Shown here one piece after another: positions 26 to 34,538 of a stretch of 34,588 bases of DNA. The notes under the pieces were generated by a model. It was given only the letters and a program-made list of their open reading frames with translations. It was not told the DNA's origin and ran no database searches. How positions within the stretch are numbered: the stretch's first letter is position 1; the number at the start of each line of letters is the position of its first letter. A program made the translations under genes and the position numbers. Origin of the DNA: a virus; the UHGV virus genome UHGV-0091505; one strand, given 5' to 3'.

Positions 26-1426
26 TTAGTCTCCAGGATTCCCGGGGCGGTTCAGACCGCAATAAAATCCTGTTCCTGTACCGTTTGTGTAAAGTGCGTG
101 ACCTTCATGCCCTTGTGAAGCAGTGATATTTTTATGGTATATTCCTCCCACTTTTTGGTTGTCTTTGACTACACCCTTTACACCAAAATCACATGTGTCA
201 AATCTCGCGTATCCTATGCATGCACTTACTCCAGTTAGCCAAATGCCAGTTATGAATCCATAGACTTCAATGTCATTAATATAGAAATCAGAAATGTCCC
301 TTTCTTCATAATAGTTCAACCATACTGGACATCCATAATCTTTCCAGTCTCCAGATGTTACATATGAATATCCAAGGGTATTACTATTAATTACAGTTGT
401 CCTGTCCCCATTATATGTAAACTTCCAATATCCCAACATTTTCACTCGAGGTGTACGAATTTCGAACACTGGATAACCCCACAACAATTGCTCAAAGGTG
501 GCATTATCAGAAATTAGAACCATGTCAGGATTTGGAATTATAATCCACCCAGATATAGTGTATTTTAGATTTCCAAACTCTATTCTCTTTGCTCCACTAT
601 TCAGAGCAGCATTAATTGCTGCCATATCAGCATCGGCATCACCATTTCCTACCGGTCCGAAATCTGCAACAGTAACTGTTTCAGCCATCTTGTCATGGAC
701 TGTCCTTGTAACAGAATTAGAATAAGGTTGCTTAACTGCAACTAAAGCATCCCCCTTCCCATCGGAAGAACTTGCTAACTGAATAAATACATCAGATGCT
801 GATCCAGATGGAGGAATAACAACAATCGCATTACCATCATTATCAAATGCTGGCATCATATTCCGCCGAACTGCTGCTGGAGGTAACTGATTTATTGGCT
901 CTGGAACGCGGAGAGTTCGGCTAAGATTAGAGGATACAATGGTATCTACATAGTTTTTTGTAGCTGCATCCTGAGGGTCGCGTGGGTCTTTCAGATTACG
1001 AATATAGTTATTCAGAGCATTGTACCAGTTAGCAATACTTGACGGCTTGCGCAGTGCCAGGCTAAACCAACTGCGAACATGCTGAATCAGCATCGTTAGC
1101 TTATCAAGCGCATCCTCATGCACCTCGGCAAAGAACTTACCCTGATTGCGCAGATCAGTTTCCTGAGTAACTGGCAGTTCTCGTAATATAGAAATCTGAT
1201 AACCGTTAGCCAATGCCTTCGACAGAATTACATTACCGCCGTTGTACCCTCCCGCACCAGTTACTGTGTAATCAGTATCAAGAGCCAGCACAGCGATATT
1301 TTCATCAAGGTCAACCACCTGAACAACCAGGTCGGATTTGTTGAAAATGCGGAAGGTATACGGAAACGATGTCGTAACGCCGTTGCCGGTGTATTCGTTG
1401 TGGTCAACTTCGGTTGAGACCGTCAT
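26..1426 (-). CDS. tail fibre / tailspike protein
   Basis: 466-aa ORF; N-terminus MTVSTEVDHNEYTGNGVTTSFPYTFRIF is the conserved phage tail-fibre N-terminal anchor motif; mid region ADFGPVGNGDADADMAAINAALNSGA resembles the start of tailspike beta-helix domains; stop TAA at 26-28. Confidence 0.75.
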   Translation of the reverse strand: MTVSTEVDHNEYTGNGVTTSFPYTFRIFNKSDLVVQVVDLDENIAVLALDTDYTVTGAGGYNGGNVILSKALANGYQISILRELPVTQETDLRNQGKFFAEVHEDALDKLTMLIQHVRSWFSLALRKPSSIANWYNALNNYIRNLKDPRDPQDAATKNYVDTIVSSNLSRTLRVPEPINQLPPAAVRRNMMPAFDNDGNAIVVIPPSGSASDVFIQLASSSDGKGDALVAVKQPYSNSVTRTVHDKMAETVTVADFGPVGNGDADADMAAINAALNSGAKRIEFGNLKYTISGWIIIPNPDMVLISDNATFEQLLWGYPVFEIRTPRVKMLGYWKFTYNGDRTTVINSNTLGYSYVTSGDWKDYGCPVWLNYYEERDISDFYINDIEVYGFITGIWLTGVSACIGYARFDTCDFGVKGVVKDNQKVGGIYHKNITASQGHEGHALYTNGTGTGFYCGLNRPGNPGD

Positions 1427-1530: not shown

Positions 1531-1545
1531 TTACCTTTCAGGTGA
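1531..1545. promoter_or_regulatory. operator-like site TTACCTTTCAGGTGA (variant of the prophage operator motif)
   Basis: TTACC-N5-GGTGA; same variant class as a site in the cI/cro intergenic region; lies 40 bp upstream of the LexA box. Confidence 0.35.
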
Positions 1546-1582: not shown

Positions 1583-1602
1583 TACTGTATAAATATACAG
1601 TT
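1583..1602 (+). promoter_or_regulatory. LexA (SOS) box TACTGTATAAATATACAGTT
   Basis: CTGT-N8-ACAG with AT-only spacer at 1585-1600, flanked TA..TT; about 20 nt upstream of SD GGAGAAG and ATG at 1622. Confidence 0.7.
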
Positions 1603-1621
1603 ATTGCATGGAGAAGATAAG

Positions 1622-1879
1622 ATGCAGCAGTATCACTATCCACTGGAAGACGGATTTACCGAAAGGATTCACACGCCGGGAGGCGTCAGGTCACTGGTGG
1701 AGGGATCGCACTTGATGAAATTACTCCGGGATCTCGATAAGGATGGATTTAATGTCGATGGCCCACTTGCCGAACTGACTGCACTGATTAACTACGTCAC
1801 CAGCTCACAGATGTCTATGCATGATCTGCAAACACATCTCGACTATTGTGCCGAACAATTACGAAAACAAACCAGATAA
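1622..1879 (+). CDS. small SOS-controlled antirepressor-like protein (standalone paralog of the C-terminal domain of the downstream Bro-N antirepressor)
   Basis: ATG at 1622 preceded by GGAGAAG; the track start at 1514 would place the LexA box inside the ORF; translated product aligns with the last ~75 aa of the 2192-2878 protein (PGGVRSLVEGSHLMKLL..LAELTALINYV..DLQTHLDY versus PSGVLGLTENSLLMNLL..AAELTTMFCYI..DIQTHAEY). Confidence 0.55.
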   Translation: MQQYHYPLEDGFTERIHTPGGVRSLVEGSHLMKLLRDLDKDGFNVDGPLAELTALINYVTSSQMSMHDLQTHLDYCAEQLRKQTR

Positions 1880-1882
1880 GGT

Positions 1883-1925
1883 TTGCAATTACCAAGTGGA
1901 GTACTTATATTTACCTTTGCGGTAA
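1883..1925 (+). promoter_or_regulatory. sigma70-type promoter (TTGCAA-17 nt-TATATT) with operator palindrome TTACCTTTGCGGTAA abutting the -10
   Basis: -35 at 1883-1888, -10 at 1906-1911, perfect TTACC-N5-GGTAA at 1911-1925; same -10/operator juxtaposition as at the pL-like promoter. Confidence 0.45.
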
Positions 1926-19079: not shown

Positions 19080-19169
19080 ATCAATGACTCCGTACGCAAT
19101 TAAATTATTACCAATTTAACCATATATGATTTATTTATCGTAGATAGTTGACATTTAACGCACAAATTA

Positions 19170-19184
19170 TTACCTTTCAGGTAG
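19170..19184. promoter_or_regulatory. operator-like site TTACCTTTCAGGTAG
   Basis: TTACC-N5-GGTAG; 14/14 identical to the core of the site at 1531-1545; a TTGACA hexamer lies 16 nt upstream. Confidence 0.3.
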
Positions 19185-19506: not shown

Positions 19507-19583
19507 GTGGCATTAGCTCAGTTGGACAGAGCAACCGCCTTCTAAGCGGTTGGTCGCAGGTTCGAATCCTGCATGCCACGCCA
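19507..19583 (+). tRNA. tRNA-Arg (anticodon UCU), argU-like
   Basis: 77 nt cloverleaf folded by hand: acceptor GTGGCAT/ATGCCAC, D-arm GCTC/GAGC, anticodon stem ACCGC/GCGGT with loop CTTCTAA, T-arm GCAGG-TTCGAAT-CCTGC, discriminator G and encoded CCA. Confidence 0.85.
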
Positions 19584-19785
19584 GAATCACGCCTAAGGAC
19601 CGTGATGCCAGAAGTTCCAGGGGCTTGGCGGTGATGGTTTCCCTTGAAGGACTATCACCGCCCTTTTTACAGCAGGACGCCATTGCGATGACTTCATGCT
19701 GTAAACCAGTACAGCCACGGAAGGCATAACTCATTGCTTCCAGTTCGCCCGGTTCGCCGGGCATTTTTTAAGGTGAGATTAGACT

Positions 19786-20157
19786 ATGAGTGACAAAGAC
19801 ATTGAATCTGAAATTCAGGCTAAAGGTTTAGCCGCGCCGCGCGTTACGCCAGACCATATCGAGAGCATTATTGCTCAGGAGGCATATTTCACAGCAGAAG
19901 ATGGTGTCTTTGGCGTAGCCATAAAAGCGAAACATACTGGCGAAGAGGTAAACTACCAGCCGCACGAATCACTTTCTCTGCTGACGTTCTGCGTTCTGGT
20001 GCTGCGCAACGGCTTCACCGTCACCGGAGAGAGCGCCTGTGCAAGCCCGGAAAACTTTGATGCGGAAATTGGTCGGAAGATTGCCCGGCAGAATGCTGTA
20101 AACAAAATCTGGATGCTTGAAGGTTACTTGCTGAAGCAGAAGTTAAGCGAGCAATAA
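19786..20157 (+). CDS. Gp49-like phage protein (N4 gp49 / Sf6 gp66-type, function unknown)
   Basis: 123-aa ORF with SD AAGGTGAG; C-terminal pattern GESACASPENFDAEIGRKIARQNAVNKIWMLEGY recalled as this family; opposite strand to flanking terminase and portal. Confidence 0.5.
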   Translation: MSDKDIESEIQAKGLAAPRVTPDHIESIIAQEAYFTAEDGVFGVAIKAKHTGEEVNYQPHESLSLLTFCVLVLRNGFTVTGESACASPENFDAEIGRKIARQNAVNKIWMLEGYLLKQKLSEQ

Positions 20158-21723: not shown

Positions 21724-22316
21724 TGATTACCATCCTGACGTTCTTTGAGTCGCTTCCTGGCTGCCGCTATGCGATCAGCAATTGTCACATTCACATTAAC
21801 ATCCAAGCGTTCTTTGAATGCATTGACATCGACGTGCTTGCCAATCAGTTCGAGGTTCTTCACCTTGTCAGGCCATTTAATTTTTTTGAGGATTGTCTCT
21901 ATCGAATCCTCGTTCATGTTCATGATGGTCGATGACAGATCAAAGCCACTAAGCGTAGTGCGCCAGATTTTCGGCCACTCACGGATTGGTTTAAGGCTCC
22001 CATCGTCGTTGAGGATGTCGATCACGTCCATCTGGTCGATCTCCACCAGGCGCATGAGAACGTAATCAGCACTGACACGCATTCGTTTGTTGCGCTCCTC
22101 CATCAGCTCGGCAATCCGTTTCTGAATGCGTTCATCGCGCATCATGACACTGGCTTTAACTGCCGCTGTATTTGGGGAGAATCCTGCGTTAATCGCTGCC
22201 TGAGTCTGGTTTTCAGGCGTTTTGATGTATGACTGGCAATAAGCCTCCTGCATTGCTGTGAGCGGCTTAAATTGCGTTGATTTGCGTTTATAGGTTTTAG
22301 GTTCAGCAGGCATCAT
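21720..22316 (-). CDS. terminase small subunit
   Basis: Probable start at the ATG pair 22316/22313 (MMPAEPK..); the longer track ORF extends through an operator repeat translating to TITTTVTITTVV; DNA-binding type N-terminus. Confidence 0.8.
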   Translation of the reverse strand: MMPAEPKTYKRKSTQFKPLTAMQEAYCQSYIKTPENQTQAAINAGFSPNTAAVKASVMMRDERIQKRIAELMEERNKRMRVSADYVLMRLVEIDQMDVIDILNDDGSLKPIREWPKIWRTTLSGFDLSSTIMNMNEDSIETILKKIKWPDKVKNLELIGKHVDVNAFKERLDVNVNVTIADRIAAARKRLKERQDGNQ

Positions 22317-22333
22317 AACCACCGTGGTAATAG

Positions 22334-22348
22334 TTACCGTTGTGGTAA
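22334..22348. promoter_or_regulatory. operator palindrome TTACCGTTGTGGTAA upstream of terS
   Basis: Perfect TTACC-N5-GGTAA 18 nt upstream of the terS start; preceded on the minus strand by TACTAT (-10-like). Confidence 0.4.
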
Positions 22349-22354
22349 TAGTAC

Positions 22355-22385
22355 CATGCAAAATAAAGCCGCCATAGTTGGCGGC
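22355..22385 (-). terminator. intrinsic terminator between nin-like block and terminase genes
   Basis: On minus strand GCCGCC-AACTAT-GGCGGC followed by TTTATTTTG. Confidence 0.5.
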
Positions 22386-22426
22386 AGTATTCAAAACCCA
22401 TCAAATTTATCATGCATAATCTACTC

Positions 22427-22438
22427 GTGACATGTCAC
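22427..22438. repeat. perfect 12-bp palindrome GTGACATGTCAC (copy 3 of 3)
   Basis: Overlaps the stop codon of the 112-aa gene, upstream of the terminator and terS. Confidence 0.6.
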
Positions 22439-22773
22439 ACTATTAATTTCGTTTCATGCCAGCCTTTAGTCACCCAGCATTGCGAGTCACCATTACACGG
22501 GCATGAATTCACAGGAATTCTCTCGCCGCACTTACCGCAAAGTTTTCTGCTGATCGATTTTATACGCCCGCGCACGCGTACATCATCCTGGCGGATCAGT
22601 AACGCGATATACTCACCAAATTCGTAAGGTGCACGCCCGGGGCGACGAGTGGCACAGTTACGCTCCAGCATTTCAATTTCCTGAGCATCAAGCACAATCT
22701 CCAGCTTACGTACACCGGATGCAGCTTGTCTGGCTCTCTGAGCGGCTTTGCGCTCTGCTGCTGATTTAGCCAT
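22435..22773 (-). CDS. hypothetical Cys-cluster (zinc-binding-like) protein
   Basis: 112 aa; basic N-terminus, CGKCG and CPCNGDSQC clusters; last gene before terS. Confidence 0.45.
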   Translation of the reverse strand: MAKSAAERKAAQRARQAASGVRKLEIVLDAQEIEMLERNCATRRPGRAPYEFGEYIALLIRQDDVRVRGRIKSISRKLCGKCGERIPVNSCPCNGDSQCWVTKGWHETKLIV

Positions 22774-23047
22774 TGATATTCACCTTTATCGCGAACACCT
22801 TTACCGGTTTATCACCGAAGTGCGGATGCGTGATTGTCTTGATTTCATATCCGCCATACGGAACATCAATTCTGCGGCTGGAATCGTCGCGCTTCGGATA
22901 TCCCTTTGTGATAATCAGGCGGTCATACTCCCGGAACATAATTCGCTTATTCCAGTAGTCATTACACAGGCGATACTCTTCCGTTTTCTCTCTGCGAATC
23001 ATGGCATCGAAGTATTCACCTTTGACGGCAAGTTGCAGGTTAGCCAC
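22766..23047 (-). CDS. hypothetical protein (possible ASCH/PUA-like fold)
   Basis: 93-aa ORF in the nin-like block; weak pattern similarity only. Confidence 0.4.
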   Translation of the reverse strand: MANLQLAVKGEYFDAMIRREKTEEYRLCNDYWNKRIMFREYDRLIITKGYPKRDDSSRRIDVPYGGYEIKTITHPHFGDKPVKVFAIKVNING

Positions 23048-23342
23048 GATTAACCTCCTGCGGAGTAGCCTTTACAAGCACTGGTGTAAATCCATCTTCA
23101 TTAAGGTTATGAATATAGACTTCTGTTCTCCTGCGCTCTTCAACGTTTAATATGGTTTCTGGATCATAAACCCATACTTTCATTCGAGTATTCCATGAAG
23201 AAATCGCTTCAGATTTAGTTCGTTTTTCTGGTCCTTGGGCGCCACATTTGCATGACACATAGCGCATTTTCCCTCTGATACTGAATGAGTATCCGATGTT
23301 AAGCACAGTGGAACCACAGAATGGGCAGCGATATAGATTCAT
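23040..23342 (-). CDS. Lar-family restriction alleviation-like protein
   Basis: 100 aa; MNLYRCPFCGS...CKCGAQGP...AISSWNTR matches the Lar-family Cys pattern. Confidence 0.5.
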   Translation of the reverse strand: MNLYRCPFCGSTVLNIGYSFSIRGKMRYVSCKCGAQGPEKRTKSEAISSWNTRMKVWVYDPETILNVEERRRTEVYIHNLNEDGFTPVLVKATPQEVNRG

Positions 23343-23857
23343 AAATCATCCACCTTAGGCGCAGCTGAGACAGCAACATTCCAGAACTCAGAAAACATAT
23401 TGTATGCACCAGATAGATTGGAAGTGGCATACCCTCCAAGCTCACTTCTAATCTGAACAGCTCTCATCATTTCCGGGGTTAACTCCTTCGGCACCATAAC
23501 CCAACCATCCGGAATGACCGGAGAGTTGCCATTTACATCGAAGTTTGGCTCTGCGTCCTGAACCAGGAGGATGTAACCATTCTTGGCAGTATCAAGTTCT
23601 AACGCCTCGGTGACGGTGCCGAAATAGCGATTACCTAAATCAGCATCACAAGTGCTTACATCAATGGAAACTTCCATCCCTTCGATTAATTCTGGCAAGT
23701 TGTAAGTTTGGCTTACAGGCTCTGCTTCCAGCGATGCCAGTGCAATCCGTGCCAGTTCTTCCGCTTCTTCTGCTGGCAGTACAACGCTGCTACCAGGTCC
23801 GTATGTTTCGCGCCACTGCTTGATTGTCAGCAGTCGCTCTTTGGTAATAGTGGTCAT
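23339..23857 (-). CDS. hypothetical protein
   Basis: 172-aa ORF, coupled to neighbours in the nin-like block. Confidence 0.45.
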   Translation of the reverse strand: MTTITKERLLTIKQWRETYGPGSSVVLPAEEAEELARIALASLEAEPVSQTYNLPELIEGMEVSIDVSTCDADLGNRYFGTVTEALELDTAKNGYILLVQDAEPNFDVNGNSPVIPDGWVMVPKELTPEMMRAVQIRSELGGYATSNLSGAYNMFSEFWNVAVSAAPKVDDL

Positions 23858-24093
23858 TTGTTAATCCTCAAAACTTTATGCCCGGGCGCAAAAGCACGCG
23901 TTTTGTCTTTGCTTATTCGCCAGCCATCCTTGCGCGCCTCTTTTGCACAGCCAGCCCATGACGTACCTATATACTCACCGAAGTCTGGCGACTTATATTT
24001 GCCATCTGTACACTGGAGGCAATCACAATAGAGATGCATGGTGTAACTTGCAGCGATAGCCATATCACTCTCCTTTGATGCGAATGCCAGCAA
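23854..24093 (-). CDS. hypothetical Cys-rich small protein
   Basis: 79 aa with CDCLQC cluster. Confidence 0.4.
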   Translation of the reverse strand: MLAFASKESDMAIAASYTMHLYCDCLQCTDGKYKSPDFGEYIGTSWAGCAKEARKDGWRISKDKTRAFAPGHKVLRINK

Positions 24094-24895
24094 GCCAGTT
24101 TCTGATGCCGATATATTCAGCGTTTCTGAAACCGCTTTTTACATATATAAAAGGCAAGCGAAGATTGTGACCATTGGCTGCCAGGTAGTCTTTACAACCC
24201 TGCTCGGTGAAACAGCAGGTCACGAATTCATCAATATCTTTCACAGCAACACGCCGCCATTTTTCTGGTGGCTCCCGAAAGTTTTCATGAAGTAGTTCGA
24301 GACGACGACTTTGGAGTTTATTGGCTTCATTGCCATCTTCATCAACCCAGACAATCCGGTCATAGTCATAATCAGCATCAACAACGATTTCGCGCTTTTG
24401 ATACACACAAAACATAGGATCTGACGTTATTCGATTATCCTGTGTTCGAATATTTTCACCGATGATGCTAAACGAATCTGGTGCAGATTTTGTCTGCAAC
24501 TCTTCGATACGTTCAGCCATCGCAGCACACTCTTCAAAGTTGCTTAATGCTTTTCGCTCCCATTCGGCGCATTGTTTTCCAAGCTCTGCAATCAGCTTGT
24601 CTTTGCCTTCCAGCTCAACGCGCAGCCTCCCAACCGTTAGCGCAATATCCTCGTTCTCCTGGTCGCGGCGTTTGATGTATTGCTGGTTTCTTTCCCGTTC
24701 ATCCAGTAGTGCCAGCACGGTTTCTGGTCCGGCCAGAAATTTGAAGGCGTTGAGCGCATCAATATCCACACCGTAATCTTTAAGTTCCTGTTCACTTAAC
24801 AAATCATCATCAGCTGGCAACATTAACAGGCGTTCCATTGCTGGAATTGCACGTTCCGCCGCCTCACGCAGTGCCTGGTAATTAATTTCGCTCAC
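24065..24895 (-). CDS. hypothetical protein (coiled-coil, Ea22/Ead-like flavour)
   Basis: 276 aa, central coiled-coil, Cys-containing C-terminal domain. Confidence 0.45.
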   Translation of the reverse strand: MSEINYQALREAAERAIPAMERLLMLPADDDLLSEQELKDYGVDIDALNAFKFLAGPETVLALLDERERNQQYIKRRDQENEDIALTVGRLRVELEGKDKLIAELGKQCAEWERKALSNFEECAAMAERIEELQTKSAPDSFSIIGENIRTQDNRITSDPMFCVYQKREIVVDADYDYDRIVWVDEDGNEANKLQSRRLELLHENFREPPEKWRRVAVKDIDEFVTCCFTEQGCKDYLAANGHNLRLPFIYVKSGFRNAEYIGIRNWLAGIRIKGE

Positions 24896-25512
24896 TGGTT
24901 GCCTCCTTTGCGAAGCTGGGCAGCAAAGTCAACTAACCACTCAGTCATTTCAACCTTCCCTACCAGGTCTGAACCAGGGTGCATACAGCAATCACTCTGC
25001 GCCGCTTTGAAATCCTTATACTCATATTCTTGGGCCACCAGATTTTTTGCAGCTTCTATAGCAGCATCCACGCCCTGCGCCCGTATTTCAGACAGGAAAG
25101 CATCAGTGGCTGGAGTTTCAACACGGATGCTGTCGCGCAAGATGAAAAATGCATTGAGCATTCCAGTCTCTGGCACTTCATCCTGATGCTTCTCATACGC
25201 ATCAAGAGCCTTCATCATCTCAGGTCCGAATGGTTGAGGGTGCGCAGACTTCAGCCCCGCATTCTCCGCCGCCAGCGCCGAAAACTTCTCGTGTGCCAAC
25301 TTAACAGCCGCATCAGCCTGCTTAATTGACTCAATCGCTTTCTGCTGGTCTTCGGCCAGCGCATTAGCACGCACCAGTTGCACTTCCAGTTGCGTTGCCA
25401 AATCGCTGATCAGCTTTGCCACACTGCGCATATCAACGGCACCACATTCTGCTTTCAGTTCCGAAGCCATCTCATGCCCGGCGGCAACTAACCATTTGAT
25501 ATTATTTTCCAT
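24892..25512 (-). CDS. hypothetical protein
   Basis: 206-aa ORF, helical, coupled to downstream gene. Confidence 0.45.
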   Translation of the reverse strand: MENNIKWLVAAGHEMASELKAECGAVDMRSVAKLISDLATQLEVQLVRANALAEDQQKAIESIKQADAAVKLAHEKFSALAAENAGLKSAHPQPFGPEMMKALDAYEKHQDEVPETGMLNAFFILRDSIRVETPATDAFLSEIRAQGVDAAIEAAKNLVAQEYEYKDFKAAQSDCCMHPGSDLVGKVEMTEWLVDFAAQLRKGGNQ

Positions 25513-25573
25513 CTTTACCCTCGCTTATCCACATAACTTATTGATTACATTGATAACTAAAAAGATCGTCGAT

Positions 25574-25918
25574 TCAGAACTCTTCGATGTTCCAGCCACC
25601 ACCTGCTTTCTTTGGTTTAACCGTTACCCCGATGATTCGGAACGGATACTGATCTGCGGCGACTTTGGTTTTCACCCTGGCGTCGTCGGTCCAGAAACCT
25701 TTCACTTCGTGCAGTTCCATCTCGCCGGTGGCGAGCATCACAGCAAAATCGGGCGTATAGAACGTGTTGTCAGCTAACCGCAGCTTGATACCCTCGAATC
25801 GATACCAGGCGATTTCCCCTGCACGTTTACGCAGCTCAAGGTGCTGGCAATACGCAGATTCTGTTTTGTTCATCTGGCCTGTTTTGAGTCGACCAAGAGC
25901 CTGTATCTGTTTTCTCAT
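25574..25918 (-). CDS. DUF1064-family phage protein
   Basis: 114 aa; pattern YCQHLELRKRAGEIAWYRFEGIKLRL..YTPDF..EVKGFWTDDARVKTK typical of DUF1064. Confidence 0.55.
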   Translation of the reverse strand: MRKQIQALGRLKTGQMNKTESAYCQHLELRKRAGEIAWYRFEGIKLRLADNTFYTPDFAVMLATGEMELHEVKGFWTDDARVKTKVAADQYPFRIIGVTVKPKKAGGGWNIEEF

Positions 25919-25921
25919 GAT

Positions 25922-25998
25922 TTACCCCTGAGGTAATTAAAAACCACATAAGACACTAAATCAATAGAGTTTAGAATATTTTGTTACCCAACAGGTAA
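25922..25998 (-). promoter_or_regulatory. operator-flanked promoter (minus strand TTGATT-17 nt-TTTAAT) between the P-like gene and the nin-like block
   Basis: Two perfect palindromes TTACCCCTGAGGTAA (25922-25936) and TTACCCAACAGGTAA (25984-25998) bracket a -35/-10 pair (plus-strand 25959-25964 and 25936-25941); same architecture as the pL-like promoter. Confidence 0.45.
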
Positions 25999-26035
25999 TT
26001 ATCAAGACGTAAAAAAATGCGCTATCGCGCTGGTA

Positions 26036-26836
26036 TTACTTGATAAATCCTGCCGCCTTTCCCCGCCTGTATTCCTCCATCAGCCACTGCGCCGGTGTTA
26101 TCCCCCCAAGGGTGGCGGCGTTAGGCATGCACCCGAAACTTCGCCCTGGTGGATGGTAAACGTCTCTCCCTGTGTTCGGAGGCGTACTCATGGGTTCTGG
26201 CTTTGCCTGTATGCTGATCACCGGATCGGGTATCTGCTGTCCGGAAGCCACCTTTTTCGCCCAATCATCGAGCAGCCTGCGCGCGTGTTTCTCAACCTCA
26301 ATCTCGCTAAGCTGGCGCTGATACATTGCACGGCGGGTATCACATACGACCCAGTACATAACCGGATGTCGCCACGGGAATCTTTCGGGACCACCAGGAT
26401 ATAAACTTTTTTCCTTGCTGTACCGGTGAAACTCCGCCATCACATCGTCAATGGTGACGCCAAGAACCATCTTGCTGTCTTTACACCACTTGATAAATTG
26501 CCCTGGCGACGGCCAGAACGGAGATTCACTGGCGCGGGCGTGGCGCATACCAGCAGAAACCTGTTCACGGGTTCGGATCCCCCCTTCGGCAAACGCAGCA
26601 ATCCACTGCTGTTTTGCAGCAACTTCCTGCTCTGGCGTCTTCAGGTTGGTTACCACTGCCGCCGGAAACAGTTGTTTCAGCTGTTTGAAAAGGGCATCAA
26701 CAAGCCTCTCTGCTGACATGTTCACCACATTATCATTGTTGACGTATTGATGCTCATAACCTGACATGCGAGAAAGGGCTTCTCCGTCACGGTTTTGTAT
26801 CGCGGTAAAAACGTTGTTCACAAGAAATCCTCCCAT
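26036..26836 (-). CDS. replication protein P-like helicase loader
   Basis: Segment QQWIAAFAEGGIRTREQVSAGMRHARASESPFWPSPGQFIKWC aligns with lambda P (RRQWVLAFRENGITTMEQVNAGMRVARRQNRPFLPSPGQFVAWC); start codon choice uncertain (overlaps O-like gene by 19 nt). Confidence 0.85.
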   Translation of the reverse strand: MGGFLVNNVFTAIQNRDGEALSRMSGYEHQYVNNDNVVNMSAERLVDALFKQLKQLFPAAVVTNLKTPEQEVAAKQQWIAAFAEGGIRTREQVSAGMRHARASESPFWPSPGQFIKWCKDSKMVLGVTIDDVMAEFHRYSKEKSLYPGGPERFPWRHPVMYWVVCDTRRAMYQRQLSEIEVEKHARRLLDDWAKKVASGQQIPDPVISIQAKPEPMSTPPNTGRDVYHPPGRSFGCMPNAATLGGITPAQWLMEEYRRGKAAGFIK

Positions 26837-27633
26837 GCTTCAGGGCTGTTCCAGTGCGGAACATTGTTATCAGGTAATGTTGATTGCTTCTGTCTGCTAA
26901 TCTGCAGCCGCCTTGCCAGCTTCTGCTCCCACTGTGCCTGATGGTATGCCTTACCCTCAGCCATCCAGTAAATTCTGAACTCTGCAAGTTCCTGTGCCGT
27001 TGGCAGACTGTCCAGGTAGATTCCCTGCAATGAGCTTTTCCGAAGAAAGTCATCTGATGGCTGCCATTGTTCATGCATGACAAATTTGCCTAATTGCCCT
27101 GGCCCACCAGGAGGAACAAAGTTATTCATCACGGCGTTGTTTGCGCCTGGGTCATGAGGCACAGAATCTCCGCTTTTTGTCCTGCTCTCCCTCTCTTGGT
27201 TAAATGACTGGTTATATGACTGGTTCTGGATCCCGTTTTTGGGATCATTCAACATCCCGTTTTTGGGATCATTCAACATCCCGTTTTTGGGTATATTCCC
27301 GTTTTCGGGAACATTACCGTTTTCGGGTTCATTACGTCCTTCTAGGTTGCCTTTAATGTTCCCTTTTTTGGTTATATTAAGAGAGAAAACCCGCACTCTT
27401 TTCGTCGCTCCCTTTCTCTCTCCGGTATCTGAAATAAGCCCCATTTTCATGAGCGATATAAGCCCGGCCTGCACGGTTTTTTTATTCAGGCAAGTGTCTT
27501 TAACGAGGCGTTCTATGCTGGGGTAGCAGAGGTTATATTCATCGGCTCTGTCAGCCATCGAGAGCAGTATGAGCTTTAATGACGAGCTACCTGGATCTGT
27601 CTCCCAGGCCCAATCTGTTGCATGTCTGCTCAT
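26818..27633 (-). CDS. replication initiator, O-like (HTH N-terminal domain, iteron-containing)
   Basis: 271 aa; N-terminal winged-HTH-like region; internal DNA iterons encode the NG-rich repeat PENGNVPENGNIPKNGMLNDPKNGMLNDPKNG; followed by P-like gene. Confidence 0.75.
   Translation of the reverse strand: MSRHATDWAWETDPGSSSLKLILLSMADRADEYNLCYPSIERLVKDTCLNKKTVQAGLISLMKMGLISDTGERKGATKRVRVFSLNITKKGNIKGNLEGRNEPENGNVPENGNIPKNGMLNDPKNGMLNDPKNGIQNQSYNQSFNQERESRTKSGDSVPHDPGANNAVMNNFVPPGGPGQLGKFVMHEQWQPSDDFLRKSSLQGIYLDSLPTAQELAEFRIYWMAEGKAYHQAQWEQKLARRLQISRQKQSTLPDNNVPHWNSPEAWEDFL
27231..27330. repeat. replication origin iterons (about five direct repeats, core CCCGTTTT(T/C)GGG) inside the O-like gene
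   Basis: Two perfect 24-bp units TCCCGTTTTTGGGATCATTCAACA then three shortened variants; AT-rich stretch follows. Confidence 0.7.
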
Positions 27634-27648
27634 GATTAATCTCCGCTA

Positions 27649-27849
27649 TCAGCTTGAATGTTGTGGGGAGGAATTAATCATGATCTGCTTAATCTCTGCC
27701 CTGATGCGACGGTTTGATTCCATGGTGCACTCAACACAGTGTCCGTTGTAAACCCAGCGTTCACTGTCATGTCCGTGCTTACATGGTTTTCCGGTGTAGT
27801 AGCGTTTAAGTCCGCGCTTTGCGGCATCAATACGTGTAATGATTTCCAT
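27649..27849 (-). CDS. small Cys/His-cluster protein in cII-equivalent position
   Basis: Start taken at ATG 27849 (MEIITRIDAAKRGLKRYYTGKPCKHGH..CVEC), SD AGG; the track ORF has a hydrophobic 21-aa extension. Confidence 0.45.
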   Translation of the reverse strand: MEIITRIDAAKRGLKRYYTGKPCKHGHDSERWVYNGHCVECTMESNRRIRAEIKQIMINSSPQHSS

Positions 27850-27929
27850 GGTAAGACCTGTTATTAGTATTGGGATTACGGTTATTTTGTGCTGACACAA
27901 AAAAAAGATCAACCATATTTGGTTTTTTA

Positions 27930-27944
27930 TTACCTTTGAGGTGC
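27930..27944. promoter_or_regulatory. operator-like site TTACCTTTGAGGTGC in the cro-cII intergenic region
   Basis: Variant of the TTACC-N5-GGTAA motif, next to the post-cro hairpin. Confidence 0.3.
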
Positions 27945-27978
27945 GAATAGATATGAAAAGACCGCCGGATGACGGTCT
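27945..27978 (-). terminator. tR1-like hairpin terminator after cro
   Basis: Minus-strand AGACCG..CGGTCT stem followed by TTTCATATCTATT. Confidence 0.4.
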
Positions 27979-27999
27979 ACAGAGGGTTGTGGCTGGATA

Positions 28000-28230
28000 T
28001 CATGAGTAGAAGAAGTATGCCAGTTCTGCTTTTGAGCGCAGCCATTGTCTTGTTTTACAGGCTTTAAAAAGCCCATTCATCAATACCTTACCTGGCATTT
28101 TGCGCTTACCTGTTAAGTGAGTCTGGATATAGTGACTCGTCGTTCCGGCTTCCTGTGCGAAGGCTTCACGCTCATCCGGAGTAAGTGCAAGCCAGTGCTT
28201 TTTGAAATCGAAATGTCCGTTATCGCTCAT
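28000..28230 (-). CDS. Cro-like HTH regulator
   Basis: 76 aa, divergent from the repressor gene across an operator-rich region; HTH-like segment EAGTTSHYIQTHLTGKRKMP. Confidence 0.6.
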   Translation of the reverse strand: MSDNGHFDFKKHWLALTPDEREAFAQEAGTTSHYIQTHLTGKRKMPGKVLMNGLFKACKTRQWLRSKAELAYFFYS

Positions 28231-28266
28231 AGCTATTGCCTGATATTTATTTCAGATAATAAATAT

Positions 28267-28329
28267 TCACCCATAAGGTAACAAAAATCAAGGATAGTTA
28301 CCTATGGGGTGCATTTACCTGTTGGGTAA
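28267..28329. promoter_or_regulatory. OR-like operator region (three sites) with divergent promoters
   Basis: TCACCCATAAGGTAA (28267-28281), TTACCTATGGGGTGC (28298-28312) and perfect TTACCTGTTGGGTAA (28315-28329) between cro-like and repressor genes. Confidence 0.5.
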
Positions 28330-28384
28330 TATTGCTTTAAATTGAATCATCTACTGATTCATATATGAGGCGATTTTCCAGAAA

Positions 28385-28969
28385 ATGAAAAGTATCCAGG
28401 ACGTCCGCAGGCAAAATCTCAACGACTTGATCGACCGTGAATTCAATGGTGTTCAGACGCGGATGGCAGAAAAACTTGGAACTCAGGCAAATCTGGTAAA
28501 CCGCTGGGCTCTTGGCAAGAAGGTTATCGGCGACCAGGTTGCGCGAAAAATTGAAGCTGCCGCCAATAAACCCCGTAACTGGCTTGATATCGATCGCTCG
28601 CTTTCTCAGGAAGGTTTTCAGCCTGTCGGACCAAGCGACATTGGTCAACTGGCGGCTCACAACCTGGAACGCTGGATGAGCGAAAGCCGCGACCTTTCAA
28701 CACAGGGAAAACTTCACCGCGCATCCGGCGTCGCCCAGGTGACAATCAGCCGCCTGTTAAACAATGAGGTCAGCGTTTCCATTTCCACCCTGGAGAATGT
28801 TGCATCCGCATTCGGGCGTCACGGCTATGAATTACTGATTCACCCGCACGACCCTGCGACCATCAACTATGACCGCTCGCGCTACGCATTGTTACCCGAA
28901 ACCGAGAAAGCAAAGATCGAAAGTTACATTGAATTTGTCATCAACCAGAACGAAAAAAACAAACAATAA
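28385..28969 (+). CDS. prophage repressor, dual-HTH type without S24 peptidase domain
   Basis: 194 aa; two HTH-like segments (QTRMAEKLGTQANLVNRWALGKK and HRASGVAQVTISRLLNNE); no Ser-Lys autocleavage motif recognisable; divergent from cro, same strand as the early-left operon. Confidence 0.7.
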   Translation: MKSIQDVRRQNLNDLIDREFNGVQTRMAEKLGTQANLVNRWALGKKVIGDQVARKIEAAANKPRNWLDIDRSLSQEGFQPVGPSDIGQLAAHNLERWMSESRDLSTQGKLHRASGVAQVTISRLLNNEVSVSISTLENVASAFGRHGYELLIHPHDPATINYDRSRYALLPETEKAKIESYIEFVINQNEKNKQ

Positions 28970-28989
28970 AATCATACTTTTCAGTAAGT

Positions 28990-29015
28990 AAGCCGCCTTC
29001 TGGCGGCTTTTTTAT
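28990..29015 (+). terminator. intrinsic terminator after repressor gene
   Basis: AAGCCGCC-TTCT-GGCGGCTT followed by TTTTTTATT. Confidence 0.65.
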
Positions 29016-29026
29016 TGCCTGTTCGA

Positions 29027-29103
29027 TTACCTGTCGGGTAATTTTTTTAACTCATATCTATTGACATCAAACCAAATACGAATAATCATTACCTCAACGG
29101 TAA
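29027..29103 (+). promoter_or_regulatory. pL-like promoter (TTGACA-16 nt-TAATCA) flanked by two operator palindromes
   Basis: TTACCTGTCGGGTAA (29027-29041), -35 29061-29066, -10 29083-29088, TTACCTCAACGGTAA (29089-29103). Confidence 0.55.
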
Positions 29104-31680: not shown

Positions 31681-31980
31681 GTGAGAAAGTTAAGCCGACT
31701 TGAAAAATATCACATGAACAAGGTTTCAATGCGCAGTCCGTCAAAGATTGTCGCCGTTACTCCTGCGGCGATAGAGATCGAAAAACGCGCGATTGAAAGA
31801 GAGAAAAAAGGGCAGTTCCGCATTGCCGCCCACCTTTGGCTTCAGTGTATGGATGTTGCTTCTGGTGATGTTGAGCGTGCAAGGATCGCGGTTCGCAGGG
31901 ACCAATGTATCACAAAAGGTAACGGCCTTCGCCGTGGAGACTATAGCGGTATAGGATGTTGTGGGGTGGTTTATGACTAA
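31681..31980 (+). CDS. PerC/ANR-like small regulator (tentative)
   Basis: 99 aa with GTG start (alternative ATG at 31714); segment KKGQFRIAAHLWLQCM resembles the PerC/ANR core motif; weak. Confidence 0.35.
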   Translation: MRKLSRLEKYHMNKVSMRSPSKIVAVTPAAIEIEKRAIEREKKGQFRIAAHLWLQCMDVASGDVERARIAVRRDQCITKGNGLRRGDYSGIGCCGVVYD

Positions 31981-32623
31981 GAAATACACACTAATCTATG
32001 CAGATCCACCTTGGGTATACCGGGACAAAGCCGCGGATGGTAATCGCGGTGCTGGTTTTAAATATCCGGTTATGAGTGTGCTGGATATCTGCCGCCTTCC
32101 TGTGTGGGATTTGGCCGATGAAAACTGTCTGTTGGCCATGTGGTGGGTGCCAACACAACCACTCGAAGCACTAAAGGTTGTTGAAGCCTGGGGATTTCGT
32201 CTGATGACGATGAAGGGCTTCACGTGGATAAAATGTGGTAGTCGACAACCAGATAAACTGGTTATGGGTATGGGACACATGACTCGCGCCAATAGTGAAG
32301 ATTGCCTGTTTGCAGTAAAGGGAAAACTACCTCCACGCATTAATGCAGGGATCGTTCAGTCATTTACCGCACCGCGGCTTGAGCATTCAAGAAAACCAGA
32401 TGTCGTTCGTGAAAAACTTGTGCAATTGTTAGGCGATGTTTCTCGCATTGAACTGTTCGCCCGCCAGACGTCTCATGGCTTCGATGTTTGGGGTAATCAG
32501 TGCGAAGACCCGGCAGTGCAACTACACCCTGGATACGCGTTGGATATTGGCGGATTAACAAATGCATTCAGCAATGCTCCGGTGTCACCAATAGACAACC
32601 AGGGGCGGGAGCGTGCAGCATGA
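31973..32623 (+). CDS. MT-A70 family N6-adenine DNA methyltransferase
   Basis: Start ATG 31973 ([14 protein letters not shown]); DPPW catalytic motif; stop overlaps phosphatase start. Confidence 0.8.
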
Positions 32624-33279
32624 ACCTATATCAACGCATCAATGGCGCTGACTGGTGCAATATCTTCGTCGTCGGCGATCTGCATGGGTGCTACACGCTG
32701 CTGATGAACGAACTCGACAAAGTTTCATTCGACCCGGCGCGCGATTTACTTATTTCCGTTGGTGACCTTGTTGACCGCGGCGCTGAAAACGTCGAATGCC
32801 TGGATTTGATTACTATGCCGTGGTTCCGAGCTGTTCGTGGCAACCATGAGCAGATGATGCTGGATGCACTGGTCAACGGCGGAAGTTTCGGACATTGGAT
32901 GTCAAACGGCGGTGGATGGTGGCACCAACTTGATTCTGAGCAGGATGTGCAACTCAAATACCTTCTGCCAAAGATTACCAACCTCCCGATGATTATCGAA
33001 CTGGTTACCGGCAATAAGAAGGTCGTCATCTGTCACGCAGACTACCCGCACAACGAATACGCATTCGATAAGCCAGTACCAGAAGAAATGGTGATATGGA
33101 ATCGTGAGCGGGTTAGCGACGCGCAGGACGGTATTGTCTCGGAGATAACCGGTGCCGATTTGTTCATCTTCGGTCATACGCCAGCACATCACCCACTGGT
33201 GTATGCAAACCAGATGTACATCGACACCGGCGCAGTGTTCTGCGGAAATCTGACGCTTACCAAAGTCCAGGAAGGATAG
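32620..33279 (+). CDS. serine/threonine protein phosphatase (lambda PPase-like metallophosphatase)
   Basis: Motifs GDLHGC, GDLVDRG, GNHE and long stretches matching lambda phosphatase ([47 protein letters not shown]). Confidence 0.9.
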
Positions 33280-33281
33280 AA

Positions 33282-34538
33282 TTATTTATTACTGTCTTCC
33301 ATCCACCTCTCAAACTTCGACGGGGAGAACGGAATCAGATCCGTATGCTCCCCGTCAATCCAGGAATCAATCATATCGGCCCACTGCTGCAACATGTAGG
33401 CGCGCTGTCTTGCGTATTCCGCTTTGTTATATACGGCGCGCACACCTTTCTGCTCATGTGCCAGAGCCTTTTCAATCCAGTCTGAAGGATAACCAGCCTC
33501 ATGCAACAACGTACTGGCTGTACGGCGCATATCGTGTACGGTGAAGTCCTGAATATGCTCACCATCTTCATTTATTATTTTCACCGTTCTGTCGATCAGA
33601 GAGTTCAGCGCGGCATTAGATAATGGCTTCCGGAAATTGTAACGACCAGGAACCAGATATTCACTTCCACCAGCGCACATCTGTAACCCGACCAATATAT
33701 CCTGTGCCTGTTTAGGCAGGTAAATAACGTGCGCCCGGCTTCCCTTCATGCGGTCTGAAGGAATTGTCCATGTCCATTTTTTAAAATCTATTTCATCCCA
33801 CGTTGCATTGGTGAACTCGCCTTTACGAACCATAGTGATAAGCACAAGCTTTAAAGCCATTTTCATAGTGCCCATAGCACCAATGGCATCCAGCGTGCGG
33901 AAGAACAGGCCAATTTCTTCTGGTGTCAGTGTTCGCTCTCGTGGTTTAAATATGGCGATAGACGAAGGTTTAATGTCAGCCGCAGGATTAAACAAACCAT
34001 GACCACGGTCATTGGCGTGACGGTATACGCTGCTGATGATCTCCCTGGCCTGTACTGCTGTTGCACGGCCACCGCGTTCGACAATCCGGTCACACAAATC
34101 ACGAACCATCGATGTGGTAATTTCAGCCATCATTTTGTTGCCAAGAACCGGAAGTATGTCACGGTCAATCACCGCCTGCTTCATTGCGCGGGTACTATCA
34201 GCCAGGATGACGTGTTTCATATAACTGTCGGTATGTACCGCAAACGTCTCGGCACCACGAATCTTTTTGATACCGTCACGTTTAGCCGCAGCCGGTGACA
34301 GACCTGCTTTAAGCAGCTTCTTTGCAGCTATCAGTTCTTCTCGCGCTTCTGACAGGCTGATACCGTCACGCCCATACTGCCCTATTACCAGCGTTTCGCG
34401 GCGACCGTTGATACGGTAGTCGTAGCGAAACGAGACCGTGCCTGACGTGAGCACAGCTACATACAGCCCGTCACGATCGGAGACCTTGTACAGTTTGTCC
34501 TGCGGCTTGAGGTTTTTTAATTTTGTATCGGTAAGCAC
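33282..34538 (-). CDS. tyrosine integrase (P4-type with N-terminal arm-binding domain)
   Basis: 418 aa; GTG start; N-terminal DUF4102-type arm-binding domain (LTDTKLKNLKPQDKLYKVSDRDGLYVAV); catalytic-domain residues HDMRRT...Y near C-terminus. Confidence 0.9.
   Translation of the reverse strand: MLTDTKLKNLKPQDKLYKVSDRDGLYVAVLTSGTVSFRYDYRINGRRETLVIGQYGRDGISLSEAREELIAAKKLLKAGLSPAAAKRDGIKKIRGAETFAVHTDSYMKHVILADSTRAMKQAVIDRDILPVLGNKMMAEITTSMVRDLCDRIVERGGRATAVQAREIISSVYRHANDRGHGLFNPAADIKPSSIAIFKPRERTLTPEEIGLFFRTLDAIGAMGTMKMALKLVLITMVRKGEFTNATWDEIDFKKWTWTIPSDRMKGSRAHVIYLPKQAQDILVGLQMCAGGSEYLVPGRYNFRKPLSNAALNSLIDRTVKIINEDGEHIQDFTVHDMRRTASTLLHEAGYPSDWIEKALAHEQKGVRAVYNKAEYARQRAYMLQQWADMIDSWIDGEHTDLIPFSPSKFERWMEDSNK

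What the first reader, a model, noticed from the sequence alone, without database searches (positions are those of the whole stretch)
25922..25998. Repressor-type promoter between replication gene P and the nin-like/late block, with no Q or lysis cassette in the window
After the P-like gene there is a short hairpin plus T-run, then a minus-strand promoter (TTGATT-17-TTTAAT) bracketed by two perfect operator palindromes. Another palindrome and a terminator precede terS (22334-22385). Lambda-type phages normally place a Q antiterminator and lysis genes between replication and terminase; none is recognisable here, so late expression may be gated directly by operator occupancy plus terminator readthrough.
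Basis: partly seen in the sequence, partly recalled or inferred. Interest (0 to 1): 0.6.

Follow-up and report, generated by a model that had tools for sequence, protein, structure and literature searches.

The report
Repressor-controlled internal promoter of ε15-like prophage
The site is a real promoter flanked by two binding sites for the prophage's own repressor, but it is a standard, already annotated feature of ε15/phiV10-type phages, whose lysis genes simply lie elsewhere in the genome.

Summary
After the P-like gene come a short hairpin plus T7 (26030-26011), then two perfect TTACC-N5-GGTAA palindromes (25984-25998, 25922-25936). They bracket TTGATT-17-TTTAAT on the minus strand.

The window is a phiV10/ε15-type (Uetakevirus) prophage, not a lambda-type phage. 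The palindrome is the operator of its repressor, a homologue of the SPC32H Rep (PDB 5D50). It occurs 11 times against 0.5 expected. All copies are intergenic: at OR, at PL, here, before terS, and before other late units.

The 77-bp module has the same geometry as PL, with operator centres 62 bp apart. It is length-invariant in six phages from four host genera.

The ε15 RefSeq record already annotates the homologous upstream site as a repressor-binding site. No Q-like protein is found by profile search. In the relatives the lysis cassette sits after the tailspike, next to attP, which here is beyond the left window edge.

So the promoter reading is supported, and the surprise at the missing Q and lysis genes comes from the wrong reference phage. 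Direct operator gating of late units is plausible but already implied by the public annotation.

Side observations: a conserved CATATRTGGTT box shared with −35-less late promoters, and hypervariable operator cores.

The parts
26036..26836 (-). Lambda-P-like helicase loader gene, the last gene of the cro-O-P unit
   Evidence: Pfam Phage_lambda_P 1.5e-56; PHROG 109
26011..26030 (-). Weak intrinsic terminator: GCGC-GATA-GCGC, then A and T7
   Evidence: -8.4 kcal/mol, z -2.95; the stem is only 4 bp. Stem and T-run are invariant in 6 genomes. Annotated as a putative terminator in phiV10 at 35038-35057.
25984..25998 (.). Upstream Rep operator, TTACCTGTTGGGTAA on the minus strand; identical to the OR site at 28315-28329
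   Evidence: Homologous to ε15 35906-35922, annotated 'protein_bind repressor'.
25959..25964 (-). -35 hexamer TTGATT, within the conserved CTATTGA also present at PL
25942..25952 (-). CTTATGTGGTT box in the promoter spacer, shared with late-unit promoters
25936..25941 (-). -10 hexamer TTTAAT; its last T is the first T of the downstream operator, as at PL
25922..25936 (.). Downstream Rep operator, TTACCTCAGGGGTAA on the minus strand. It overlaps the end of the -10, the predicted transcription start and the Shine-Dalgarno sequence.
25574..25918 (-). First gene served by the promoter: DUF1064 / Holliday-junction-resolvase-like protein
   Evidence: Pfam DUF1064 3.7e-07; PHROG 190 7e-43
28385..28969 (+). 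Rep, the prophage repressor (two HTH domains)
   Evidence: PDB 5D50_A (SPC32H repressor) E 4e-42 over the full length; Pfam HTH_3
28267..28329 (.). OR: three operators between cro and rep (28267-28281, 28298-28312, 28315-28329)
29027..29103 (+). PL module: operator, TTGACA-17-AATCAT, operator. 77 bp, the same geometry as the finding.
   Evidence: 47 of 77 identical in ungapped register
28000..28230 (-). cro-like gene
   Evidence: PHROG 35 5.6e-13
27930..27944 (.). Weak operator (2 mismatches) after the cro terminator (27978-27959), before the 66-aa/O/P unit
   Evidence: Sites with 1 mismatch at the same place in phiV10, Tyrion and BUCT711.
22316..22348 (.). Two adjacent operators immediately upstream of the terS ATG (about 22314)
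   Evidence: ε15 site 12-27 is annotated as a repressor site.
22368..22385 (-). Strong terminator between the 112-aa ORF and terS
22435..22773 (-). 112-aa Cys-rich ORF (ε15 gp49 / phiV10 p55, PHROG 536 'transcriptional regulator'); candidate late regulator
19170..19184 (.). Operator before the gp3/portal unit
   Evidence: ε15 site 2931-2947 is annotated.
1531..1545 (.). Operator in the tailspike/ant divergent region
   Evidence: ε15 site 19895-19911 is annotated.
1911..1925 (.). Operator between ant and the Bro-N antirepressor gene
1583..1879 (+). LexA box TACTGTATAAATATACAGT (1583-1601) and ant (1622-1879), the small antirepressor
   Evidence: PDB 5D50_E anti-repressor E 2e-46.

Best explanation
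The 117-bp gap between the P-like gene and the DUF1064 gene holds an internal early (delayed-early) sigma-70 promoter of a phiV10/ε15-type prophage. The promoter is controlled by the phage's own repressor, Rep.

A weak terminator (a 4-bp GC stem plus T7) ends or attenuates the cro-O-P transcript. TTGATT-17-TTTAAT then restarts transcription of the nin-like block: resolvase, Ea22-like, Lar-like, and so on up to the 112-aa ORF in front of terS.

Two Rep operators bracket the promoter. One lies 19 bp upstream of the -35. The other overlaps the last base of the -10, the start site and the ribosome-binding site. In the lysogen, Rep occupies both and keeps RNA polymerase off.

Rep is a tetramer with two DNA-binding dimer units. 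The operators are 62 bp (about 6 helical turns) apart, exactly as at PL. One tetramer probably bridges both sites and loops the promoter; this step is inferred.

Induction works through the LexA-controlled small antirepressor Ant, which takes Rep tetramers apart. That frees this promoter together with PL, PR and the operator-bearing late units.

What is shown: sequence anatomy, operator identity with OR and PL, conservation, and homology of Rep and Ant. What is inferred: Rep binding at this site, the start site near 25928, the looping, and the partial termination.
For: - Motif enrichment and strictly intergenic placement.
- The same 15-mer occurs here and at OR (25984-25998 and 28315-28329), and operators flank PL.
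- The 77-bp module has identical internal distances at PL and here: 19 bp from operator to -35, a 17-bp spacer, a 1-bp overlap of the -10 with the operator, and 47 of 77 identical bases.
- In six phages from Escherichia, Salmonella, Enterobacter and Klebsiella the module is always 77 bp. All 20 half-site bases are invariant, no core base is invariant, and the TATTGA of the -35 and the ATCATG at the gene start are conserved. The pair spacing is 62 bp in all six.
- In 74 population copies the half-sites, -35, spacer and -10 are essentially invariant.
- Rep is a homologue of the SPC32H Rep and Ant of the SPC32H Ant, and ant has a perfect LexA box.
- Rep binds DNA as a tetramer whose DNA-binding dimer pairs come from different dimers, and Ant disrupts the tetramer (PMC9638917, summarising Kim et al. 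2016).
- ε15 RefSeq annotates the homologous upstream operator as a repressor-binding site.
- Distant Rep relatives (L130, L131) also place operator(s) over a promoter at the junction between replication genes and the next gene, with different geometry.
Against: - There are no binding, footprint or transcript data for this site in any accessible source.
- The hexamers match only 9 of 12 positions, and such matches are as common as in shuffled sequence.
- The terminator stem is only 4 bp, so much PR transcription may read through. The local promoter could then be a minor contributor.
- A 62-bp loop is tight, and whether a Rep tetramer can span it is unknown.
- Cro probably binds the same sites, so occupancy is not only a lysogeny signal.
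- A clean covariation test between repressor specificity and operator sequence was not possible, because every relative found keeps TTACC/GGTAA.
Confidence: 0.8

Rival explanations
1. The operator pair is only a roadblock. There is no local promoter, and Rep bound at the two sites merely stops residual PR transcripts that pass the weak terminator, in the manner of mycobacteriophage L5 stoperators.
For: The terminator is weak. Operators sit right after terminators at several junctions. The promoter hexamers are statistically unremarkable.
Against: The geometry is identical to PL, which must be a promoter. The CTATTGA of the -35 and the fixed 17-bp spacer are conserved across four host genera, while flanking bases vary. 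The sites are palindromic and exclusively intergenic, unlike stoperators.
Confidence: 0.08
2. The sites serve mainly the lytic regulator. Cro, or another early protein, binds the same operators to shut off, or from upstream positions to activate, this and the late promoters. Under this reading the operators time lytic development rather than only maintain lysogeny.
For: A Cro-like gene lies next to OR. At the -35-less late promoters the single operator lies upstream of the core promoter. Its distance to the conserved CATATRTGGTT box falls into classes of 23, 44-47 and 56 bp, about one helical turn apart, in all genomes. That pattern is typical of face-of-helix-dependent regulation.
Against: There is no evidence on what Cro binds. 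At this promoter one operator overlaps the -10 and the start site, which is a repressing position. This rival is compatible with the main explanation rather than exclusive of it.
Confidence: 0.25
3. Late expression is really gated by an unrecognised antiterminator or activator, not by operator occupancy. The 112-aa Cys-rich protein (22435-22773) would act at the promoter-like GTGACA-18-CATGAT (22438-22409, overlapping the palindrome GTGACATGTCAC) and carry polymerase through the terminator at 22385-22368 into terS. Alternatively it would activate the CATATRTGGTT-box promoters.
For: A promoter-like site followed by a strong terminator lies directly before terS. The ORF is highly conserved (701 homologues, CxxC...CxC) and usually sits as the last gene of an early operon in unrelated phages. 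The palindrome is conserved in ε15 and SPC32H.
Against: There is no Pfam hit, including to the Q families, and no PDB sequence hit. The AlphaFold model was too poor to compare (pLDDT 60). In about a fifth of homoimmune contigs (15 of 66) a different sequence precedes the terS control region. The box is absent near the ZF40 homologue.
Confidence: 0.18
4. The palindromes are chance features of an AT-rich spacer.
For: None beyond the short arm length (5 bp).
Against: 11 sites against 0.49 expected, and 13-15 sites against fewer than 1 expected in relatives. Half-sites and spacing are invariant across genera.
Confidence: 0.01

Closest known systems
Repressor-binding sites annotated in Salmonella phage ε15 (RefSeq NC_004775; Kropinski et al. 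2007, Virology 369:234, not readable here)
   Same: Same ATTACC-N5-GGTAAT motif. Sites are annotated before terS, before gp3, before the tail fibre, at PL, and at 35906-35922, which aligns with the upstream operator of this finding.
   Different: The record annotates only the upstream site of the pair. It does not annotate the three OR sites, the site before the lysis cassette, or any promoter. All sites are predictions. In ε15 the downstream gene is a RuvC-type resolvase rather than DUF1064.
Rep-Ant-LexA switch of Salmonella phage SPC32H (PDB 5D50/5D4Z; Kim & Ryu 2013; Kim et al. 2016)
   Same: Rep (E 4e-42) and Ant (E 2e-46) are homologues, a LexA box precedes ant, and SPC32H has the same operator set and the same 62-bp pair.
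   Different: Rep is about 42% identical. What those papers say about this particular promoter could not be read here.
Lambda PL/PR operators with cooperative CI binding and looping (own knowledge)
   Same: Palindromic operators overlap early promoters, and a multimeric repressor may bridge separated sites.
   Different: Lambda confines CI operators to OL and OR and reaches later genes through N and Q antitermination. Here the operators are spread over about a dozen intergenic sites, and no N or Q is recognisable.
Phage P1 C1 repressor with many dispersed operators (own knowledge)
   Same: One repressor directly controls many unlinked transcription units, including late-function genes.
   Different: P1 operators are asymmetric 17-mers, C1 is unrelated, and P1 late genes additionally need the Lpa activator.
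Mycobacteriophage L5 gp71 stoperators (own knowledge)
   Same: Many repressor sites are spread over the genome.
   Different: Stoperators are asymmetric, orientation-dependent, often lie within transcribed regions and block elongation. Here the sites are palindromic, strictly intergenic and placed over or upstream of promoters.

Membership tests
Uetakevirus (ε15/phiV10/SPC32H) Rep operator set | 15-bp palindrome TTACC-N5-GGTAA | tested here: met
   Two perfect copies at 25922-25936 and 25984-25998
Uetakevirus (ε15/phiV10/SPC32H) Rep operator set | The same motif is clustered in the rep/cro intergenic region and at PL of the same genome | tested here: met
   28267-28329 (three sites) and 29027/29089
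Uetakevirus (ε15/phiV10/SPC32H) Rep operator set | A cognate two-domain Rep and a small LexA-controlled Ant are encoded | tested here: met
   PDB 5D50_A E 4e-42 and 5D50_E E 2e-46; LexA box 1583-1601
Uetakevirus (ε15/phiV10/SPC32H) Rep operator set | Positional homology with the annotated ε15 site between the replication gene and the resolvase gene | tested here: met
   Alignment A2; the module is 77 bp in all six genomes
Uetakevirus (ε15/phiV10/SPC32H) Rep operator set | Rep protein binds the site | not testable with these tools
   Needs EMSA, footprinting or ChIP
Sigma-70 promoter | -35 and -10 hexamers with a 16-18 bp spacer | tested here: met
   TTGATT (4 of 6), 17 bp, TTTAAT (5 of 6). Not significant alone. 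Conserved with a fixed spacer.
Sigma-70 promoter | A mapped transcription start | not testable with these tools
   No transcript data found
Intrinsic terminator | GC-rich hairpin followed by a U-run | tested here: met
   A 4-bp GC stem plus U7; weak (-8.4 kcal/mol, z -2.95); invariant in relatives
Lambda-type Q antitermination of late genes | A Q-family protein encoded upstream of the late operon | tested here: not met
   No Q-family hit (Pfam at E up to 0.01, PHROGs at E up to 0.001 or 0.0001) in 30 ORFs
Lambda-type Q antitermination of late genes | A constitutive promoter followed closely by a terminator in front of the late genes | tested here: inconclusive
   GTGACA-18-CATGAT (22438-22409) followed by terminator 22385-22368; no function shown
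L5-type stoperators | Asymmetric sites, one orientation relative to transcription, located within transcription units | tested here: not met
   Palindromic; 11 of 11 intergenic
Structured RNA element | Match to an Rfam family in the intergenic region | tested here: not met
   No match at 25919-26035 at E up to 1

The most novel reading that the evidence does not exclude
ε15-type phages may run their whole programme without N- or Q-type antitermination. In this reading, one tetrameric repressor holds about a dozen promoter-proximal operators. The delayed and late promoters form a distinct class, marked by a conserved CATATRTGGTT box at about -30 to -20. The box is followed after 7 nt by a -10-like hexamer, and there is no -35.

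In these promoters the single upstream operator sits at helically phased distances from the box (23, 44-47 and 56 bp). That would imply a still unidentified activator of the box. Candidates are the 112-aa PHROG-536 protein, the PerC-like protein, the 66-aa zinc protein, or Cro acting from the operator, in a manner comparable to the T4 MotA box or phi29 p4.

The promoter of this finding would be a hybrid that carries both a -35 and the box.
Probability: 0.25. Interest if true: 0.55.

Novelty: already known. Interest (0 to 1): 0.22.

Why it matters
The result shows how a common family of serotype-converting prophages of E. coli, Salmonella, Klebsiella and Enterobacter keeps almost every transcription unit silent. 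One repressor does this, and one SOS-controlled antirepressor releases them all. For annotation, it warns against judging such prophages by the lambda gene order.

The finding itself adds no new principle. The follow-up leads could repay a transcript-mapping experiment in a genetically easy system. These leads are the late-promoter box, the helical phasing of operators, and the hypervariable operator cores.

Tried and rejected
- **Key papers not held.** Kropinski 2007, Kim & Ryu 2013 and Kim 2016 could not be read. What they say about this promoter is unknown. I relied on the ε15 RefSeq features and on a secondary summary in PMC9638917.
- **Other papers uninformative.** The ZX5 paper, whose phage has an identical Rep, and a phiV10 paper contain nothing on operators or transcripts.
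- **Covariation test failed for lack of divergence.** All Uetakeviruses, down to 42% Rep identity, keep TTACC/GGTAA. A first scan of viral contigs returned only identical Reps. Divergent representatives gave two loci: L131 still uses TTACC/GGTAA, and L130 has mixed TNACC/GGTCA sites at OR but TTACC..GGTAA at the junction.
- **Structure of the 112-aa ORF.** The model had pLDDT 60, so no fold search was run.
- **Left flank.** No near-full match in complete E. coli genomes. Placement of the lysis cassette is therefore inferred from five relatives.
- **Alternative promoter TTGATA-16-CAAAAT (26005-25978).** Rejected, because its -35 is not conserved in relatives.
- **Plus-strand AAGACA-16-TAGAAT (25950-25977).** Not conserved outside the E. 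coli group, and not pursued.
- **Rfam.** Nothing relevant.
- **Link between the CATATRTGGTT box and the 112-aa protein.** Not supported in ZF40.

Full report
**What is in the sequence.** Read on the minus strand, the P-like gene stops at 26036 and is followed by these elements:
- a hairpin, GCGC-GATA-GCGC (26030-26019), then A and T7 (26018-26011);
- an upstream palindrome, TTACCTGTTGGGTAA (25998-25984);
- a -35, TTGATT (25964-25959), a 17-nt spacer, and a -10, TTTAAT (25941-25936);
- a downstream palindrome, TTACCTCAGGGGTAA (25936-25922);
- the ATG of a DUF1064 / resolvase-like gene at 25918.

**Is it more than chance?** TTACC-N5-GGTAA with at most one mismatch occurs 11 times in the window against 0.49 expected, and no shuffle of 100 reaches 11. 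All 11 copies fall in the 6.5% of the window that is non-coding. The promoter hexamers match only 9 of 12 positions. A consensus scan finds no excess of such sites (8 against 10.8 in shuffles), so the promoter call depends on comparative evidence.

**What the window is.** The region 22000-29000 is 97-98% identical to Escherichia phages PAS61, phiv142-3 and phiV10. The window is therefore a phiV10/ε15-type (Uetakevirus) podovirus prophage lying in reverse orientation:
- int at 33282-34538;
- an early-left operon on the plus strand (RecE/RecT-like, AlpA-like, PerC-like, methylase, phosphatase);
- rep at 28385-28969;
- cro, a 66-aa protein, O-like and P-like genes on the minus strand;
- a nin-like block, then terS/terL, virion genes and the tailspike (26-1426).

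**Whose operator it is.**
- The motif forms a three-site cluster between cro and rep (28267-28329).
- It flanks a strong plus-strand promoter, TTGACA-17-AATCAT, just downstream of the rep terminator, which is PL (29027-29103).
- The upstream operator of the finding is the same 15-mer as the OR site at 28315-28329.
- Rep is a full-length homologue of the SPC32H repressor (PDB 5D50_A, E 4e-42).
- The small ORF at 1622-1879 is a homologue of the SPC32H antirepressor (5D50_E, E 2e-46). A perfect LexA box, TACTGTATAAATATACAGT, precedes it.
- According to PMC9638917, which summarises Kim et al. 2016, Rep binds DNA as a tetramer whose DNA-binding dimer pairs come from different dimers. Ant breaks the tetramer.

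**Geometry and conservation.** PL and the present module are both exactly 77 bp from the first to the last operator base. Both have 19 bp between the upstream operator and the -35, a 17-bp spacer, and a 1-bp overlap of the -10 with the downstream operator. They share 47 of 77 bases in ungapped register, including TCTATTGA at the -35. Operator centres are 62 bp apart, close to six helical turns.

The same pair, with the same spacing, lies between the last replication gene and the next gene in five relatives:
- phiV10 (35070/35132);
- ε15 (35907/35969);
- SPC32H (35972/36034);
- Enterobacter phage Tyrion (37265/37327);
- Klebsiella phage BUCT711 (4210/4272).

In the six-way alignment the terminator stem and T-run are invariant. 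So are all 20 half-site bases, the TTGA of the -35 and the ATCATG at the gene start. No operator core base is invariant, and there are no indels within the 77 bp. The gene served differs: DUF1064 in four genomes, a RuvC-type resolvase in ε15 and Tyrion. The control module is therefore conserved independently of its cargo.

In 74 aligned population copies from IMG/VR contigs with an identical Rep, the half-sites, -35, spacer and -10 are essentially invariant. The spacing is 62 bp in 152 of 155 operator pairs.

Two distant Rep relatives also place operator(s) over a promoter at this junction, with different layouts.

**Mechanism.** The best-supported reading has five steps.
1. The weak terminator attenuates the cro-O-P transcript. 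Its stem is only 4 bp, at -8.4 kcal/mol.
2. The promoter restarts transcription of the nin-like block.
3. In the lysogen, Rep occupies both operators. The downstream operator covers the end of the -10 and the predicted start near 25928.
4. One tetramer probably bridges the pair.
5. SOS-induced Ant releases this promoter together with PL and PR.

Binding, start site, looping and terminator efficiency are all inferred.

**The missing Q and lysis cassette.** Thirty ORFs were scanned with Pfam and PHROGs, and none matches a Q or N family or a lysis protein. This is normal for the group. In phiV10, ε15, SPC32H, Tyrion and BUCT711 the holin-endolysin-spanin cassette follows the tailspike and O-antigen-modification genes, next to attP and int. 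That position is beyond the left window edge. No near-identical left flank was found in complete E. coli genomes to show this directly.

**Direct gating of late genes.** Operators also lie immediately before several other units:
- terS (22348-22316, after a strong terminator at 22385-22368);
- the gp3/portal unit (19170-19184);
- the tailspike/ant divergent region (1531-1545);
- the Bro-N antirepressor gene (1911-1925).

In phiV10 and ε15, operators also precede the lysis cassette and int.

It is not new, however. The ε15 RefSeq record carries 'protein_bind, repressor, lysogeny' features at 12-27, 2931-2947, 19895-19911, 32479-32632 (three sites) and 35906-35922. The last of these aligns with the upstream operator of this finding.

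**A possible positive late regulator.** The 112-aa ORF at 22435-22773 (ε15 gp49 / phiV10 p55, PHROG 536) is strongly conserved, with 701 homologues and a CxxC...CxC motif. It has no Pfam or PDB match, and its model was too poor to use. Its stop codon lies within the palindrome GTGACATGTCAC (22438-22427). That palindrome overlaps a promoter-like GTGACA-18-CATGAT, followed by the terminator and then terS. In unrelated phages its homologues tend to be the last gene of an early operon. In about a fifth of homoimmune contigs (15 of 66), a different sequence precedes the terS control region. A Q-like or activator role is therefore possible but unsupported.

**Things seen on the way.**
1. *A second conserved element.* CATATRTGGTT is enriched (5 against 0.70 expected in the window, 6 against 0.92 in Tyrion). 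It lies in the spacer of this promoter, and before the post-cro unit, the gp3/portal unit, the tailspike and, in relatives, the lysis cassette.
   - In the late units it is followed after 7 nt by TAATAG, TAATAA or TATAAT, and there is no -35.
   - The distance from operator start to box start falls into classes of 23, 44-47 and 56 bp in all genomes. These are steps of about one helical turn.
2. *Hypervariable operator cores.* In otherwise near-identical population copies, the N5 core of the upstream operator has a mean entropy of 1.10 bit. The last 412 nt of the P gene have 0.04 bit, and third codon positions downstream have 0.37 bit.
3. *Other features.* A tRNA-Arg(TCT) lies at 19507-19583, and iteron-like repeats lie inside the O-like gene at 27197-27335.

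**Verdict.** It was framed against the wrong phage type. The feature is a conserved and publicly annotated property of ε15-like phages, so novelty is low. The late-promoter box and the operator phasing are the only leads here that might go beyond what is known.

Noticed in passing
window 25942-25952, 19118-19128, 1491-1501, 27914-27924; phiV10 L001 3308, 20921, 24739; ε15 L002 2988, 24751: A conserved CATATRTGGTT box sits in operator-bearing intergenic regions (5 hits against 0.70 expected). In late units it is followed after 7 nt by a -10-like hexamer, with no -35. The distance from operator to box falls into classes of 23, 44-47 and 56 bp in all genomes, about one helical turn apart.
   Followed up: partly
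window 25989-25993 and 25927-25931; loci L010-L089: In 74 population copies with an identical Rep, the 5-bp cores of the two operators are hypervariable (mean 1.10 and 0.50 bit). The half-sites, the promoter and the adjacent P gene (0.04 bit) are nearly invariant. The upstream PL operator core behaves likewise.
   Followed up: partly
window 1583-1879: A perfect LexA box (TACTGTATAAATATACAGT) lies 20 nt upstream of an 85-aa homologue of the SPC32H antirepressor. The longer ORF listed from 1514 is probably not the real start.
   Followed up: yes
window 1870-1925 and 2039-2878: A second, Bro-N-type antirepressor gene lies downstream of ant, with a perfect Rep operator (1911-1925) in front of it. 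A box-like CTTATCTGGTT (1870-1880, minus strand) lies 45 bp from that operator and points antisense through ant.
   Followed up: no
window 22409-22438: The palindrome GTGACATGTCAC contains the stop codon of the 112-aa ORF and overlaps the -35 of a promoter-like site. A strong terminator follows before terS. The arrangement is conserved in ε15 and SPC32H.
   Followed up: partly
window 22350-22362: TGGTACTAT, an extended -10-like element without a -35, lies between the terminator T-run and the terS operators. It is conserved as TGTTACTAT in ε15 and SPC32H, and is a candidate terS promoter overlapped by the operators.
   Followed up: no
window 27197-27335: Tandem repeats of 12, 24 and 18 bp lie inside the O-like replication initiator gene. 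They encode the repeated NGMLNDPK peptide and are probably origin iterons.
   Followed up: no
window 19507-19583 (+): A tRNA-Arg (anticodon TCT) lies between terL and the portal unit. It overlaps the start of the mechanical ORF 19513-19764 (PHROG 4647). SPC32H has a tRNA-Arg at the same place.
   Followed up: no
window 26-1426: The tailspike ORF is only 466 aa. Its C-terminal part has no close match in 5,426 complete E. coli genomes, and only the N-terminal head-binding part is conserved.
   Followed up: no
window 27649-27849 and 31681-31980: Two further small candidate regulators are present: a 66-aa Cys-rich protein after cro (PHROG 1081) and a PerC-family activator in the PL operon.
   Followed up: no
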